From: Nanobdellota archaeon
GTDB lineage: Archaea > Nanobdellota > Nanobdellia > Woesearchaeales > CAZZGN01
Assembly (NCBI GenBank): GCA_051819665.1
Contig: JBNJDG010000001.1
Coordinates: 4,369 to 68,368 of the forward strand
Direction: 5' to 3'
DNA: 64,000 nucleotides
Part shown: one piece after another, positions 6,331 to 10,392 of the stretch
Layout: every line of letters starts with the position of its first letter
Position numbering within the stretch: the stretch's first letter is position 1
Notes under the pieces: model-generated
The model's input: the letters and a program-made list of their open reading frames with translations, nothing else
Database searches by the model: none
What the model was told of the DNA's origin: nothing
Position numbers and translations under genes: made by a program

Positions 6331-6642
6331 ATGCAGAAAGCAAGAATAAAACTAGCAAGCACGGATATTGGTAAAGTAAACAAGGTCACTCAGGAGATTA
6401 GAGATATAGCTGATAAGACAGGAGTGGAGATGAGGGGACCTGTTCCTCTGCCCACAAAGAAGTTAAGGATTACCACAAGGAAATCCCCTGACGGGGAGGG
6501 TAAAGCTTCATGGGAAAGGTACGAGATGAGGGTTCACAAAAGGCTTATCGACCTGGGTGTTGATGAGAGGGCCCTTAGGCTGGTAATGAGAGTACCTATA
6601 CCTGAAGGCCTTAACATCGAGATCGAGATGGTTGAGGCTTAA
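6331..6642 (+). CDS. rps10: 30S ribosomal protein S10
   Basis: 103 aa; [10 protein letters not shown]...[23 protein letters not shown]...RVHKRLIDL is typical S10. It follows aEF2-EF1a as in the archaeal str-like cluster. Confidence 0.9.
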
Positions 6643-7208
6643 AAGGGCGTTCCCTTTTTCCTTTGTTCTTTAAGCGCTTCTACATACCAATCGAATTCAT
6701 CAAGGAATTTTTCTATTCTCTTCTCATAAGCGGTTTCTATAGCATTACCTTTCTCATCAAAACTGTCCTGTACTTCAGACATGGGGAATATGCTTGAAAT
6801 AGTAGGACAGCCGAGTTCCGCCAGGAGGGCTCTCAGATGTACAGCTGCTCTGACCCCTCCGAAAGACCCTGCCGAATAAGAGGCTATCGCACTCGGTTTG
6901 AACATATACTCCTTCTGGAAATGATCGAGCAGGTTCTTTAATGCAGGAGGAATGCTGTGGTTGTATTCTCCGCTCACTATCATGAAACCATCAGACTCAT
7001 CCAGGATTTTCCCTATCTTTTCTATATCCTCTGGTGCTTTCTCAAATTCCTTGTACATCCTGTCAAGGAAAGGTATATCGTATTCTTTCGGATCGATCAG
7101 AGTGGCTTCATGACCTCTTTCTTTTACTTCATTCCTGATGAACCTTGCGGCCTTTATGCCTTGTCTTTCCTCTCTTACAGAACCATAGATAATAGATATT
7201 TTTGCCAT
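6639..7208 (-). CDS. NADPH-dependent FMN reductase family flavoprotein (flavodoxin-like fold)
   Basis: [17 protein letters not shown]... has the Rossmann-like start and ...[17 protein letters not shown] motif that I recall for the FMN_red (SsuE/ArsH-like) family. The internal ATG at 7208 is preferred over the ORF-track start at 7310. Confidence 0.55.
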
Positions 7209-7297
7209 TATACGAATCACTCCAAGGGGGTTGAAGTATTGGAGATATTTAAAGTTTATAGAAGATACTCTTTTATTAAGAAAAAGAAAGGGATAGC

Positions 7298-9871
7298 TCA
7301 GTCTCCGCATCCCTTCACTAATTTTCCGTTCTCGAACTTCACTTTACAGGCGCCTCCTCCGCCGCCTGAATCATCCTTTTCCACTTCCCCTTTATCATCT
7401 CTGGACTCTTCAACATCATAACCTTTTTTCATGGCGTGGAAAGGCGTAGTGAGGGTATTGTCTACCATGAATACATCGTCTCCTTTCATGATCCTCTCTT
7501 CACCACCCTCCTTGACCCTGAATAATTTGTCCTTATTCTCCTGGAACTCTGACATCTCTTTTGCGACGCTCAGGATCGGATACCTGCTGCCGTCCCTGTA
7601 TATGGTGACTCCTTTGAGGCCGTTCTTCCAGGATCTGAGGTATACATCCGATATGGTCTCTGGTTCTATGCTTTCGGGAAGGTTTATGGTGGAGGATATG
7701 CTGTGGTCGATGTAACCCTGGCAGGTCCCCTGCATCCTTACCCTGTTCTCGGGTTTGATGAAATGGGATGTCCTGAAGAAATGTTCGGGAAGCATATCTT
7801 TCAGATCATCGGTGTTCTTGGCATCCTTCGCCTTCTCATTTAGGCCTTTCTCGTCCAGATAAGCCTGGACAGTGGAATGGAATACCTTGAATTTCTTATT
7901 GCCGAAGCTTTCTGATCTTCTCTCGTAGAAAAGGGAGAATATGGGTTCTATTCCTCCAGAGACTCCGATGTAATTCTTTTTCTCTCCCTTATACCCGAGG
8001 ACGATATTGGATATCGAGCCAGTCGGTGCGATGGATGTAAGAGCTACATTCCTCAGCCCGTTCTCCTTTATCTTCTCCTTTACTTCTTCAGATAGCACTT
8101 CTTTGAAGAACTTTCCTCTGCTGTATTTATCGAAATCCCAGATGGGGACGGGACCCTTTTCACCTGCAAGCTCTGCGGAAGCTTCATAACAGGTGTTCGT
8201 GATGGTGTTCGTCACCTTCTCTACCATCTTCAGGCCTTCTTCTTCATCATAACCAATGCCCATCTGATTGAGCATATCTGCTATGCCCATAACACCTATT
8301 CCCAGCCTCCTTGTTTCTTTCGCAGCCTTCCTCTGTTTCTCGAGTGGATTCAGTGCAACGTTCCATGTTATGACATTATCGAGCATCCTTACGACATTCT
8401 TCGTAGTGTCTTTCAGGCTTTCCCAGTCGATCTCTGCTTCATCACTATAGCCTTTCTTCACAAACCTCGAGAGGTTCAAAGAGCCGAGGTTGCATGCGCC
8501 TCCGTCTTCAAGCGGCACTTCTCCGCATGGATTTGTGGAAGAGATCCTTTTCCCTATATAGTTTGAAGGCGAATACTTGCTCATCGTGTCCCAGAATATA
8601 AGACCTGGTTCTGCAGTAGAGTAATTCCCTGAGACAAAAGCTTCCCATATATCTTTCGCGTTGATTATCTTCCTTACATCATGAGTGTTCTTTGATCCAT
8701 AATAGGTCATGAACTCTCCTGTGTAGTGGATCGCATAATCGTATTCTCCTCCTTCTACAAGATAATCTCCGTAGATGTCCCTCTTCTCTGTATCCTTGAG
8801 GTCCTCTTCACTTATGTTCTTGCCCAGATATTCGTTGAGTTCATCGATATTCCTGAACTCTTTTACTATCTCATAATTCTCTACATCCTTCGAGGGGAGC
8901 TTGTATGAATAATCAGTATCCTTGTCCTGGGGTTTGTTGTATATCCTTTCCTTGTCATGTTTCTTATAGAGGAGGATCGAGCCTTCTTCGTGCTCTTTGG
9001 TCTCTTCAACGGCCTTCATGAACTCATCGCTGACTTTCAGGCTGATGTTGGCGAACCTGACCTGTGTGTTCTCCCTGACCTGTTTTTCTATCTCCTGAAG
9101 GCTTTCCTTATCGAACTTTCCTGACCATTCGCATTGCTGGACTACCTGCTTGGTCGCCCAGTTGGAATTCTGTTTCACTTTGATGAATTCCATCACATCA
9201 GGATGTTTAACATCAATGGTGATCATGAGGGCTCCTCTTCTGCCTGATTGGCCAATAAGGCCCGTAGTCAGGGAATAGAGTTCCATGAAAGAGACAGCGC
9301 CTGTTGATTTATCTGCAGCATTGTGGACGACCGAATCTTTCGGCCTTAATTTTGATATATCGAGGCCTATGCCTCCACCGTATGAATATGTCCTTGCACA
9401 GTCATAGGCGGCATTGTATATGGATTCTATGTTATCATCACCGATCACAGTGACGAAACAGTTTGCCAGGGTCTTCAATCTGAATAGATCGCCGGCTCCT
9501 GCGATGACCCTGCCGCCTGGCATGAAATAGCCTTGATAAAGCATATTATAGAAATTCTCTGCGTTCTCTCTCTGTTTGTTCTTCTCCTCTACCGATGCGA
9601 GAGAGGCTGCAATCCTCGTGAACACATCCTCCGGCCTGTCTTCGATGACTTCTCCGTTGAGATCCTTGAGGTAGTATTTCTGTTGGTAGATGTTCTGGGC
9701 AAGCTCATTACCGTTGAGATAATCCTCATGAAGGGACAAACTTCCTTTCTCCTGTTTTTCCTTAAGCTTATAGAACAATTCCTTATATGAGGTCAGGAAT
9801 TCCTGATTTACTTTGTTGTGGTGTTTTGTCTTAAATTCAAACATTTCTTTAAGTTTATTCTCCTTGTCCAT
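7298..9871 (-). CDS. nrdJ: adenosylcobalamin-dependent (class II) ribonucleoside-diphosphate/triphosphate reductase
   Basis: About 857 aa. The active-site region STNPCGEVPLEDGGACNLGSLNLSRFV is conserved. The tail ends in a C-terminal Cys pair (GGGGACKVKFENGKLVKGCGD). The ATG at 9871 (MDKENKLKE) is preferred because the ORF-track extension to 9925 would run into the palindromic operator-like sites. Confidence 0.85.
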   Translation of the reverse strand: MDKENKLKEMFEFKTKHHNKVNQEFLTSYKELFYKLKEKQEKGSLSLHEDYLNGNELAQNIYQQKYYLKDLNGEVIEDRPEDVFTRIAASLASVEEKNKQRENAENFYNMLYQGYFMPGGRVIAGAGDLFRLKTLANCFVTVIGDDNIESIYNAAYDCARTYSYGGGIGLDISKLRPKDSVVHNAADKSTGAVSFMELYSLTTGLIGQSGRRGALMITIDVKHPDVMEFIKVKQNSNWATKQVVQQCEWSGKFDKESLQEIEKQVRENTQVRFANISLKVSDEFMKAVEETKEHEEGSILLYKKHDKERIYNKPQDKDTDYSYKLPSKDVENYEIVKEFRNIDELNEYLGKNISEEDLKDTEKRDIYGDYLVEGGEYDYAIHYTGEFMTYYGSKNTHDVRKIINAKDIWEAFVSGNYSTAEPGLIFWDTMSKYSPSNYIGKRISSTNPCGEVPLEDGGACNLGSLNLSRFVKKGYSDEAEIDWESLKDTTKNVVRMLDNVITWNVALNPLEKQRKAAKETRRLGIGVMGIADMLNQMGIGYDEEEGLKMVEKVTNTITNTCYEASAELAGEKGPVPIWDFDKYSRGKFFKEVLSEEVKEKIKENGLRNVALTSIAPTGSISNIVLGYKGEKKNYIGVSGGIEPIFSLFYERRSESFGNKKFKVFHSTVQAYLDEKGLNEKAKDAKNTDDLKDMLPEHFFRTSHFIKPENRVRMQGTCQGYIDHSISSTINLPESIEPETISDVYLRSWKNGLKGVTIYRDGSRYPILSVAKEMSEFQENKDKLFRVKEGGEERIMKGDDVFMVDNTLTTPFHAMKKGYDVEESRDDKGEVEKDDSGGGGGACKVKFENGKLVKGCGD

Positions 9872-9921
9872 AGCTACACCCACCTTATTGTCATCATTTC
9901 GAGACGAAAAAAACCATAAGA

Positions 9922-9969
9922 ACACAATATGTTGTGTTTATAGTCATGTAACAATACAATATGTTGTAT
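9922..9969 (-). promoter_or_regulatory. two NrdR-box-like 16-bp palindromes (ACACAATATGTTGTGT at 9922-9937; ATACAATATGTTGTAT at 9954-9969) flanking a TATA-like element in the nrdJ promoter
   Basis: Both sites share the identical 12-mer ACAATATGTTGT. They match the bacterial NrdR-box consensus I remember (acaCwAtATaTwGtgt). Their centres are exactly 32 bp apart, and they sit 51-98 bp upstream of the nrdJ ATG. Confidence 0.45.
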
Positions 9970-10102
9970 AGGTTATTGTCTTAATCATCCATTTATTTAA
10001 GTCTTTTTATCCTGAATCCTATATGTTATTTTCTGGCGGTCATCGAGGAAAAAACTTTATAAAGGATTCCTATAGCCCAGACCAGGTAATACATACATTC
10101 AT

Positions 10103-10186
10103 GCCGTGGTCGCATAATCTGGTATTGCGCGAGACTGGAAATCTCGTTTCCTTCGGGATGTCCCGGTTCAAATCCGGGCCACGGCG
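10103..10186 (+). tRNA. tRNA-Ser (anticodon GGA), 84 nt, long variable arm, CCA not encoded
   Basis: The acceptor stem GCCGTGG/CCACGGC pairs 7/7. The anticodon stem CGAGA/TCTCG carries the loop CTGGAAA. The T-arm is CCCGG-TTCAAAT-CCGGG, with a 14-nt variable arm and a G discriminator. A TATA-like CTTTATAAAGG lies about 45 nt upstream. Confidence 0.85.
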
Positions 10187-10392
10187 TCTGTCCCATTATG
10201 CTACCTTGTGTAGCATTATCGTACCTGGGTTGATATAGGGCAAGGCCCTTATGTGGGAATCCGGGCCACGGCGTCTTAAATTTCTTAAAAAGGAGTGGGC
10301 TTGACTGAACGAAGTGAAGGAAACCCACCTTGCATTCCAAATTTGGGAAATAATTTGCGGGCCACGGCGTCTTAAATTTCTTAAAAAGAGAA
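10172..10392 (+). repeat. three direct copies of the tRNA-Ser 3' end (att-site-like scars)
   Basis: The native 3' end AATCCGGGCCACGGCGTCT lies at 10172-10190. The same 19-mer recurs at about 10259-10277, and GGGCCACGGCGTCT recurs again at about 10361-10374. The two displaced copies share an identical 30-mer GGGCCACGGCGTCTTAAATTTCTTAAAAAG. Confidence 0.5.

What the first reader, a model, noticed from the sequence alone, without database searches (positions are those of the whole stretch)
9922..9969. Bacterial NrdR-box-like tandem operator in the promoter of an archaeal class II ribonucleotide reductase
Two 16-bp palindromes lie upstream of nrdJ, which is encoded on the minus strand: ACACAATATGTTGTGT (9922-9937) and ATACAATATGTTGTAT (9954-9969). 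They share an identical 12-mer, ACAATATGTTGT. Their centres are exactly 32 bp apart, about three helical turns. Both fit the NrdR-box consensus I remember from bacterial RNR operons (acaCwAtATaTwGtgt, usually tandem with about 31-32 bp spacing). A TATA-like ACTATAAAC sits between the boxes, and the proximal box covers the expected transcription start. That is a textbook repressor layout. The geometry also supports the nrdJ start at 9871 rather than the longer ORF to 9925. No nrdR gene (zinc ribbon + ATP-cone, about 150 aa) is visible in this window. NrdR is considered essentially bacterial, so either this archaeon carries nrdR elsewhere, or the RNR promoter came in by horizontal transfer with its operator, or an unrelated archaeal factor uses a similar palindrome.
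Basis: partly seen in the sequence, partly recalled or inferred. Interest (0 to 1): 0.6.

Follow-up and report, generated by a model that had tools for sequence, protein, structure and literature searches.

The report
NrdR operator on DPANN archaeal nrdJ
Two matching 16-bp sites in front of the DNA-precursor enzyme gene of a tiny DPANN archaeon are almost certainly the binding site of NrdR, a well-known nucleotide-sensing repressor that also occurs in many such archaea; this is a sound but unsurprising find, and its only fresh aspect is how the site sits on an archaeal-style promoter.

Summary
Two 16-bp near-palindromes (9922-9937, 9954-9969) share a 12-mer and lie 32 bp apart, 50 nt upstream of a class II RNR gene (nrdJ, minus strand, ATG 9871). 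Both carry all six critical NrdR-box positions (C4 A6 A8 T9 T11 G13) and the canonical 16-bp linker. Chance is excluded: 0 of 400 simulated windows hold such a pair.

The window comes from a Nanobdellota (DPANN) archaeon. Five related DPANN nrdJ or nrdR promoters carry the same tandem boxes at 31-32 bp, while the flanks have diverged. One of them has a canonical 149-aa nrdR next to nrdJ. NrdR is annotated in many Woese-, Nano-, Aenigm- and Micrarchaeota MAGs, and the literature puts it in 22% of archaeal genomes. "Essentially bacterial" is therefore outdated.

A conserved BRE/TATA (about 9994-10009) starts 31-32 nt (34 in L010) upstream of the distal box in all six loci. Calibrated on leaderless genes of this window, that puts the transcription start at the first base of the distal box, so the operator covers about +1 to +48.

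No nrdR lies in the 64 kb, and the rest of the genome could not be reached. Verdict: a new member of a known kind, of low to moderate interest.

The parts
9954..9969 (-). Distal NrdR box (box 1 in gene orientation: ATACAACATATTGTAT). The predicted transcription start falls at or within 1-2 nt of its first base (about 9969-9971).
   Evidence: Sequence. Score 25/28 with C4 A6 A8 T9 T11 G13 all present. Conserved in related loci.
9938..9953 (-). 16-bp linker between the boxes, not conserved in sequence.
   Evidence: The 15-16 bp linker is the canonical NrdR spacing (PMC13584703, PMC12051234). The linker sequence differs in every relative.
9922..9937 (-). Proximal NrdR box (box 2 in gene orientation: ACACAACATATTGTGT). 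It ends 50 nt upstream of the ATG.
   Evidence: Score 27/28, the best in the window. Top nhmmer hit of a profile built from sigma-70-type sites.
9994..10001 (-). Predicted TATA box of the nrdJ promoter (CTTAAATA on the gene strand), starting 32 nt upstream of the distal box.
   Evidence: Octamers with at least 7/8 match to TTTAWATA start at -32 or -31 from the distal box in the window, L004, L007, L008 and L009. In L010 no octamer reaches 7/8; TATATAAA was read by eye at -34. The same octamer type starts 28-33 nt before the ATG of at least nine apparently leaderless genes in this window.
10002..10009 (-). A-rich BRE-like tract (ATAAAAAGA on the gene strand) directly upstream of the TATA box.
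   Evidence: Sequence. A-rich tracts precede the TATA in all six aligned loci. BRE adenines at -34/-33 are described in PMC4158304. This assignment is inferred.
9880..9884 (-). Shine-Dalgarno-like GGTGG, 9 nt upstream of the nrdJ ATG, inside a predicted leader of about 98 nt.
   Evidence: Relatives have GGGG(G) at the same place.
7298..9871 (-). nrdJ: class II (adenosylcobalamin-dependent) ribonucleotide reductase, 857 aa, without an ATP-cone. This is the regulated gene.
   Evidence: Pfam PF02867 and PF00317 only. 100% identical to P0001, named by NCBI.
6639..7310 (-). NADPH-dependent FMN reductase-family gene. Its start overlaps the nrdJ stop by 13 nt, so it is probably co-transcribed and under the same operator.
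   Evidence: ORF coordinates. Pfam PF03358, E=6e-34. Co-transcription is inferred from the overlap.

Best explanation
This is a functional NrdR operator on the promoter of the nrdJ(-FMN reductase) unit of a DPANN (Nanobdellota) archaeon.

Proposed mechanism: NrdR, a zinc-ribbon plus ATP-cone repressor presumably encoded elsewhere in this genome, forms a tetramer when loaded with dATP plus ATP. The tetramer binds both 16-bp boxes, whose centres are three helical turns apart. When only ATP is bound it forms oligomers that do not bind DNA, and the gene is transcribed.

The promoter is archaeal. A BRE/TATA at about 9994-10009 directs initiation at about 9969-9971, so the operator occupies roughly +1 to +48. 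Bound NrdR would leave TBP/TFB binding possible but block RNA polymerase recruitment or escape, as archaeal repressors that sit on the start site do. This RNR has no ATP-cone of its own, so NrdR would be its only dATP feedback.

Shown: the boxes, their spacing, their conservation, the fixed TATA offset, and NrdR genes in DPANN relatives.
Inferred: the position of the start site, NrdR in this particular genome, the nucleotide switch (carried over from bacterial NrdRs), and the step of initiation that is blocked.
For: - Both boxes carry all six critical positions and a 16-bp linker (PMC13584703).
- They are the top two boxes of the window. No pair of this quality arose in 400 simulations.
- A profile made only from sigma-70-type sites finds them first.
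- Tandem boxes at 31-32 bp lie upstream of nrdJ in L004/5/6 (67% identical, syntenic tRNA-Ser|nrdJ|S10-EF1a), L008, L009 (Woesearchaeota MAG) and L007, and upstream of nrdR-nrdJ in L010/L011.
- In the alignment of the six promoters the invariant columns fall in the TATA and the two boxes.
- In about 1 Mb of related loci, every strong pair found lies just upstream of nrdJ or nrdR.
- L010 encodes a 149-aa protein with Pfam Zn_ribbon_NrdR plus ATP-cone. It aligns over its full length with E. coli NrdR structures at E=1e-44.
- Its closest homologues are named NrdR in Woese-, Nano-, Aenigm- and Micrarchaeota MAGs.
- The literature reports NrdR in 22% of archaeal genomes (PMC13584703), boxes overlapping the start site, and the dATP/ATP tetramer mechanism (PMC9110341).
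- The TATA octamer starts 31-32 nt before the distal box in five of six loci, and about 34 nt in L010.
- In this window the same octamer type starts 28-33 nt before the ATG of at least nine genes without an SD, which calibrates the TATA-to-start distance.
- Archaeal repressors that overlap the start site block RNAP recruitment (PMC4158304).
Against: - No nrdR lies in the 64 kb. The rest of this genome could not be reached: the MAG is not in the position index and not among the GTDB representatives scanned. One guess at a relative's NrdR landed in other assemblies.
- There is no binding or start-site data.
- The TATA assignment rests on conservation and on an internal calibration, not on mapping.
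- About half of the more distant nrdJ loci have no boxes, so the operator is not universal in this RNR clade.
Confidence: 0.8

Rival explanations
1. The operator is real, but with the first reader's geometry. The TATA box is the TATAA in the linker (9938-9942), transcription starts near 9911, and the proximal box lies between TATA and start site. NrdR would then compete with TBP/TFB rather than block polymerase downstream of them.
For: ACTATAAAC is present at 9936-9944. L009 also ends its linker with CTATAA. A 40-nt leader with an SD would be unremarkable.
Against: The linker TATAA is absent from L004, L007, L008 and L010, and it matches TTTAWATA at only 5/8. The upstream octamer sits at a fixed offset (-32/-31, about -34 in L010) in all six loci and is preceded by an A-rich BRE. 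That octamer type and its distance match the other promoters of this window.
Confidence: 0.12
2. The boxes are bound by something other than NrdR, or by nothing. In this reading the genome has no nrdR, and the sites are either a relic that came in with a transferred RNR gene or the target of an unrelated archaeal factor.
For: nrdR is not in the window, and its presence in the genome is untested. The nrdJ and NrdR families have about 60%-identical bacterial relatives, so transfer between domains has happened.
Against: A relic would decay. Here all six critical positions are kept in both boxes, and in relatives whose nrdJ is only 61-67% identical and whose flanks have diverged. NrdR genes are common in DPANN and can sit next to nrdJ behind the same boxes. 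An unrelated factor with the same consensus, the same spacing and the same target gene is an unnecessary assumption.
Confidence: 0.06
3. The palindromes act at the RNA level. As part of a roughly 98-nt leader they would form hairpins, or a box1:box2 duplex, that affects translation or mRNA stability.
For: If the start site is at the distal box, both palindromes are transcribed. The leader folds somewhat better than shuffles: -24.5 kcal/mol, z=-2.3, with 4 of 200 shuffles folding as well.
Against: What is conserved is the sequence, at the NrdR-critical positions, rather than mere pairing. The imperfect 7/10 position is not compensated. The same boxes sit on sigma-70 promoter elements in bacterial-type relatives. 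No Rfam family matches. The z-score is modest and is expected for any pair of palindromes.
Confidence: 0.02

Closest known systems
Bacterial NrdR / NrdR-box operators (for example S. coelicolor nrdRJ and nrdAB, E. coli nrdAB, nrdHIEF, nrdDG; cryo-EM 7P3F)
   Same: Two partially palindromic 16-bp boxes with C4 A6 A8 T9 T11 G13, a 15-16 bp linker, a position in the promoter of an RNR gene overlapping the start site, and autoregulated nrdR-nrdJ operons in relatives (L010). The DPANN NrdR aligns over its full length with E. coli NrdR.
   Different: The host is an archaeon with a TBP/TFB-dependent promoter. In bacterial-type relatives of this nrdJ the boxes abut or overlap a sigma-70 -35/-10. Here they follow a BRE/TATA at a fixed 23-24 nt and would cover about +1 to +48. 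Nothing has been tested biochemically for any archaeal NrdR in the papers I could search.
Haloarchaeal nrdR-nrdB-nrdA / nrdR-nrdA-nrdB operons acquired from bacteria (PMC3019208)
   Same: An archaeal genome carrying bacterial-type NrdR together with an RNR.
   Different: Those are class I RNR operons with nrdR as the first gene, sometimes on plasmids. Here the gene is a class II nrdJ in a conserved ribosomal-protein/EF neighbourhood of a DPANN archaeon, and nrdR is not adjacent.
Archaeal repressors that bind over the start site and block RNAP recruitment (MDR1, Phr, TrmBL1/Tgr; reviewed in PMC4158304)
   Same: A palindromic operator downstream of BRE/TATA overlapping +1, with the predicted step being exclusion of RNA polymerase after TBP/TFB binding.
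   Different: These are unrelated protein families (winged-helix and similar) with different ligands. NrdR uses a zinc ribbon and an ATP-cone, and needs two boxes bound by one tetramer.

Membership tests
NrdR-box operator | Two 16-bp partially palindromic boxes matching the consensus, with C4, A6, A8, T9, T11 and G13 conserved | tested here: met
   Both boxes have all six positions (criteria from PMC13584703). They are the best-scoring 16-mers in the window. A profile built from sigma-70-type sites ranks them first.
NrdR-box operator | Linker of 15-16 bp (centres about three helical turns apart) | tested here: met
   The linker 9938-9953 is 16 bp and the start-to-start distance is 32. Relatives have 31 or 32.
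NrdR-box operator | Located in the promoter region of an RNR operon (or of nrdR), overlapping core promoter elements or the start site | tested here: met
   The operator ends 50 nt upstream of the nrdJ ATG. The predicted start site lies at the distal box. That start site is inferred, not mapped.
NrdR-box operator | Conserved in orthologous promoters of related genomes | tested here: met
   Present in L004/5/6, L007, L008, L009 and L010/11. The alignment shows conservation confined to the TATA and the boxes.
NrdR-box operator | A cognate nrdR gene in the same genome | not testable with these tools
   nrdR is absent from the 64-kb window. The MAG is not retrievable. The gene is present in related DPANN contigs and MAGs.
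NrdR-box operator | dATP/ATP-dependent binding of NrdR to the site and repression of the RNR gene | not testable with these tools
   Requires EMSA/MST and expression data. The mechanism is known only from bacterial NrdRs (PMC9110341, PMC12051234).
NrdR protein family (in DPANN relatives) | N-terminal CxxC...CxxC zinc ribbon followed by an ATP-cone, about 150 aa | tested here: met
   L010 9251-9700 encodes 149 aa with Pfam PF22811 plus PF03477. It aligns end to end with E. coli NrdR 9gex at E=1.4e-44, with the CPFC, VVDxR, RRRR, CxxC and RFTT motifs kept.
Archaeal BRE/TATA promoter | A-rich BRE and a TATA box centred about 26-27 nt upstream of the start site | tested here: inconclusive
   The sequence elements are present and positionally conserved, and they are consistent with the other promoters in the window. 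No start site has been mapped.

The most novel reading that the evidence does not exclude
In DPANN archaea a bacterial-type NrdR may have been fitted onto TBP/TFB promoters in a fixed architecture, with the distal box starting at +1, 23-24 nt after the TATA box. It would then repress by excluding RNA polymerase rather than by competing with a sigma factor. In lineages like this one, whose only visible RNR lacks an ATP-cone, it would be the sole dATP feedback on dNTP supply. That would give a simple, testable case of one repressor-operator pair working on both bacterial and archaeal transcription machineries.
Probability: 0.5. Interest if true: 0.45.

Novelty: new member of a known kind. Interest (0 to 1): 0.3.

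Why it matters
This result corrects the impression that NrdR control is a purely bacterial matter. The same operator, with the same critical bases and spacing, sits on RNR promoters of DPANN archaea. It is placed relative to a BRE/TATA rather than to -35/-10 elements.

It also offers a compact system for asking how one nucleotide-sensing repressor works with two different transcription machineries, and how genome-reduced, probably host-dependent archaea control dNTP synthesis.

For annotation, it fixes the nrdJ start codon. It also predicts an unusually long leader of about 98 nt in a genome where many genes look leaderless.

The finding does not change what is known about NrdR itself. Specialists already report NrdR in about a fifth of archaeal genomes.

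Tried and rejected
1. Reaching the rest of the genome.
- Exact-protein look-ups of nrdJ failed.
- EF1a was found only on a 4.5-kb Logan contig.
- The GTDB scan returned only two distant loci, neither with boxes.
- Accession look-up gave MGM5484261.1 / MGM5484807.1 for nrdJ, but no accessions for the unnamed NrdR hits.

2. Guessing the NrdR of the closest relative from shared source labels (P0166). It belongs to other assemblies, although its own promoter also has boxes.

3. A third 'box 0'. A weak box lies 62 nt upstream of the distal box (10016-10031), but it lacks G13, and the weak boxes in relatives sit at other offsets. Rejected as not conserved.

4. An RNA-structure reading of the leader. 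The z-score is only -2.3, and there is no Rfam family in the window, L007 or L010.

5. L018, which has a TFB 86% identical to the window's. It shares only TFB and nrdJ with the window, has no synteny and no boxes. Not informative.

6. A third whole-database protein search for this MAG's NrdR was not run. The score distribution of DPANN NrdRs is flat, so the chance of the right protein appearing among 120 listed hits seemed too small for the cost.

Full report
**Observation**

ACACAATATGTTGTGT lies at 9922-9937 and ATACAATATGTTGTAT at 9954-9969. The two are separated by a 16-bp linker, so they are 32 bp start to start.
- The shared 12-mer occurs nowhere else in the 64 kb.
- Each box is a 7/8 palindrome; positions 7 and 10 do not pair.
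- Both carry all six positions that recent work singles out as highly conserved in NrdR boxes: C4, A6, A8, T9, T11 and G13. The linker is the canonical 15-16 bp (PMC13584703, PMC12051234).

Several tests exclude chance.
- A weighted consensus scan ranks the two boxes first and second in the window (27 and 25 of 28). They form the only pair at 20-45 bp.
- None of 400 Markov-simulated windows contained a comparable pair. The mean was 0.095 single boxes per 64 kb.
- A profile HMM built only from eight sites in sigma-70-type promoters of related nrdJ genes puts 9922-9968, on the gene strand, at the top of the window with E=0.012. Of those eight source contigs, only L055 was checked directly as bacterial.

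**Context**

The gene downstream on the minus strand (7298-9871) has the RNR barrel and all-alpha domains and no ATP-cone. It is 100% identical to an NCBI protein named adenosylcobalamin-dependent ribonucleoside-diphosphate reductase of a Nanobdellota archaeon MAG (accessions).

The window is archaeal. It encodes TFB, aEF1-alpha, aEF2, S10, L7Ae, S28e and L24e.

The start at 9871 is supported by three things:
- the 857-aa NCBI model;
- the alignment of homologue N-termini;
- a GGTGG 9 nt upstream.

An FMN-reductase-family gene (6639-7310) overlaps the nrdJ stop by 13 nt and is probably co-transcribed. A tRNA-Ser gene lies divergently at 10102-10188.

**Related loci**

The organism is poorly represented in the collections. 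The GTDB scan found only two distant loci without boxes, and the MAG is not in the gene-position index.

Homologues of the RNR at 60-67% identity gave usable contigs. All five independent archaeal contigs carry tandem boxes:

| Locus | Identity to window nrdJ, context | Spacing (bp) | Boxes lie upstream of |
|---|---|---|---|
| L004/5/6 | 67%; same tRNA-Ser, nrdJ, S10-EF1a neighbourhood | 32 | nrdJ |
| L008 | 66% | 31 | nrdJ |
| L009 | 65%; Woesearchaeota MAG | 31 | nrdJ |
| L007 | 62% | 32 | nrdJ |
| L010/L011 | 60% | 32 | a 149-aa gene followed by nrdJ |

The 149-aa gene in L010/L011 has the Pfam domains Zn_ribbon_NrdR plus ATP-cone. That protein aligns end to end with E. coli NrdR structures at E=1e-44. 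Its closest database relatives are named NrdR in Woesearchaeota, Nanoarchaeota, Aenigmarchaeota and Micrarchaeota MAGs.

A metagenome scan with an alignment of the DPANN nrdJ clade added 80 loci. In about 1 Mb of sequence, every strong box pair lies just upstream of nrdJ or nrdR. Roughly half of the more distant loci have none.

**NrdR in archaea**

The literature is not uniform.
- One preprint, citing the original 2005 analysis, still says NrdR is absent from archaea (10.1101/2025.03.28.645925).
- Others say 'rare in archaea' (PMC9110341, PMC12176259).
- One says 'a few archaeal RNRs' are NrdR-controlled (PMC12051234).
- The most recent gives 22% of archaeal genomes (PMC13584703).
- Haloarchaeal nrdR-nrdAB operons of bacterial origin were described in 2010 (PMC3019208).

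An operator in a DPANN archaeon fits what is known. I found no paper that combines NrdR with DPANN names or with archaeal promoter elements.

**Promoter geometry**

Box-anchored comparison of the six archaeal loci shows a TTTAWATA-type octamer preceded by an A-rich tract at a fixed offset.
- The octamer starts 32 or 31 nt upstream of the distal box in the window, L004, L007, L008 and L009.
- In L010 no octamer reached the 7/8 threshold; by eye, TATATAAA starts 34 nt upstream.
- In the multiple alignment, the invariant columns fall in this octamer and in the two boxes. The rest has diverged.

I calibrated the distance inside the window itself. At least nine genes have the same octamer type starting 28-33 nt (mode 31) before their ATG, with no Shine-Dalgarno sequence. 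That is the pattern of leaderless transcripts. It also agrees with a TATA centre at -26/-27 (PMC4158304).

Applied to nrdJ, this puts the start site within a base or two of the first base of the distal box, at about 9969-9971. The two boxes then occupy about +1 to +48 of a roughly 98-nt leader that ends in the SD.

In bacterial-type relatives of the same RNR, the boxes instead abut a TTGAyT -35 and overlap the -10. One such contig, L055, carries Rho and bacterial RecJ.

**Mechanism**

The most likely mechanism combines two bodies of established knowledge.
- From bacterial NrdR: a tetramer loaded with dATP plus ATP binds both boxes, and ATP alone gives oligomers that do not bind (PMC9110341, PMC12051234).
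- From archaeal repressors: operators downstream of BRE/TATA that overlap +1 let TBP/TFB bind but exclude RNA polymerase, as with MDR1, Phr and TrmBL1/Tgr (PMC4158304).

Both steps are inferred for this locus. This nrdJ has no ATP-cone, whereas many relatives do. NrdR would therefore supply its only dATP feedback. That too is an inference.

**What remains open**

No nrdR is in the window. tblastn with E. coli and B. subtilis NrdR found nothing, and an HMM of 121 NrdRs against all 719 six-frame ORFs gave a best E of 0.61. I could not reach the rest of the genome, and a guess at a relative's NrdR failed.

The strongest indirect argument that a cognate factor exists is purifying selection. All critical positions are kept in both boxes across relatives whose RNRs are only 61-67% identical.

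Rivals considered:
This disagrees only on the layout, not on the operator.
- A relic site, or a different binding factor.
- An RNA-level role. The leader folds with z=-2.3, and there is no Rfam match.
- Chance, which is excluded.

**Verdict**

This is a new member of a known kind. Its one modestly new aspect is the fixed placement of a bacterial-type operator on an archaeal BRE/TATA promoter.

Noticed in passing
window 10171-10388: The 3' end of tRNA-Ser(GGA), AATCCGGGCCACGGCGTCT, is repeated downstream at 10258-10276 (100%) and at 10354-10372 (84%). A 31-nt unit, CGGGCCACGGCGTCTTAAATTTCTTAAAAAG, occurs exactly twice, 96 nt apart (10262 and 10358). This looks like stacked attachment-site scars of integrative elements at the tRNA 3' end, or a small tandem array.
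   Followed up: partly
window, promoters of genes starting at e.g. 15080(-), 20096-side 19086(+), 23284(+), 27538(-), 38434(-), 45990(+), 48720(-), 53834(+), 63214(-): At least nine genes have a TTTAWATA-type octamer starting 28-33 nt before the ATG and no Shine-Dalgarno sequence. This suggests that leaderless mRNAs are common in this DPANN genome. nrdJ, with a leader of about 98 nt and an SD, is an exception.
   Followed up: partly
window 6639-7310 (-): An NADPH-dependent FMN reductase / flavodoxin-like gene overlaps the nrdJ stop codon by 13 nt, and so probably forms an operon with the RNR. It could be an electron-supply partner for the reductase. The same gene is not present after nrdJ in L004 or L008.
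   Followed up: no
L010 9701-10000 and L007 9784-10000: Long spacers that look structured lie between the NrdR-controlled start and nrdJ. In L010 this is a 300-bp GC-rich stretch between nrdR and nrdJ. In L007 it is a 217-nt leader with two similar hairpins (CACAGCAAGCTGTGGG, GCCGTAGCAAGCTACGGG). No Rfam family reaches its gathering score.
   Followed up: partly
L007 10001-17730: Behind the NrdR boxes this DPANN contig has an extended dNTP-synthesis cluster: nrdJ, a 218-aa ORF, a second RNR with an ATP-cone, cob(I)alamin adenosyltransferase, DUF192, thymidylate synthase and DHFR.
   Followed up: no
L045, L051, L052, L055, L056, L058, L060, L080 (upstream of nrdJ): Bacterial-type relatives of this nrdJ carry box pairs 31 or 33 bp apart start to start, that is, with 15- or 17-bp linkers. 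A TTGAyT -35 abuts the distal box. L055 is confirmed bacterial by Rho and RecJ.
   Followed up: partly
L018 14302-15159: A metagenome contig (Ga0209541_10002526) encodes a TFB 86% identical to the window's TFB. Otherwise it shares only a 58%-identical nrdJ, has no synteny with the window, and has no NrdR boxes.
   Followed up: partly
window 10016-10031: A weak third NrdR-like box (gene strand AAATAACATATAGGAT, score 21/28) lies 62 nt upstream of the distal box, beyond the TATA. In the plus-strand reading (ATCCTATATGTTATTT) it lacks G13. Weak boxes in relatives sit at different offsets, so it is probably chance.
   Followed up: yes
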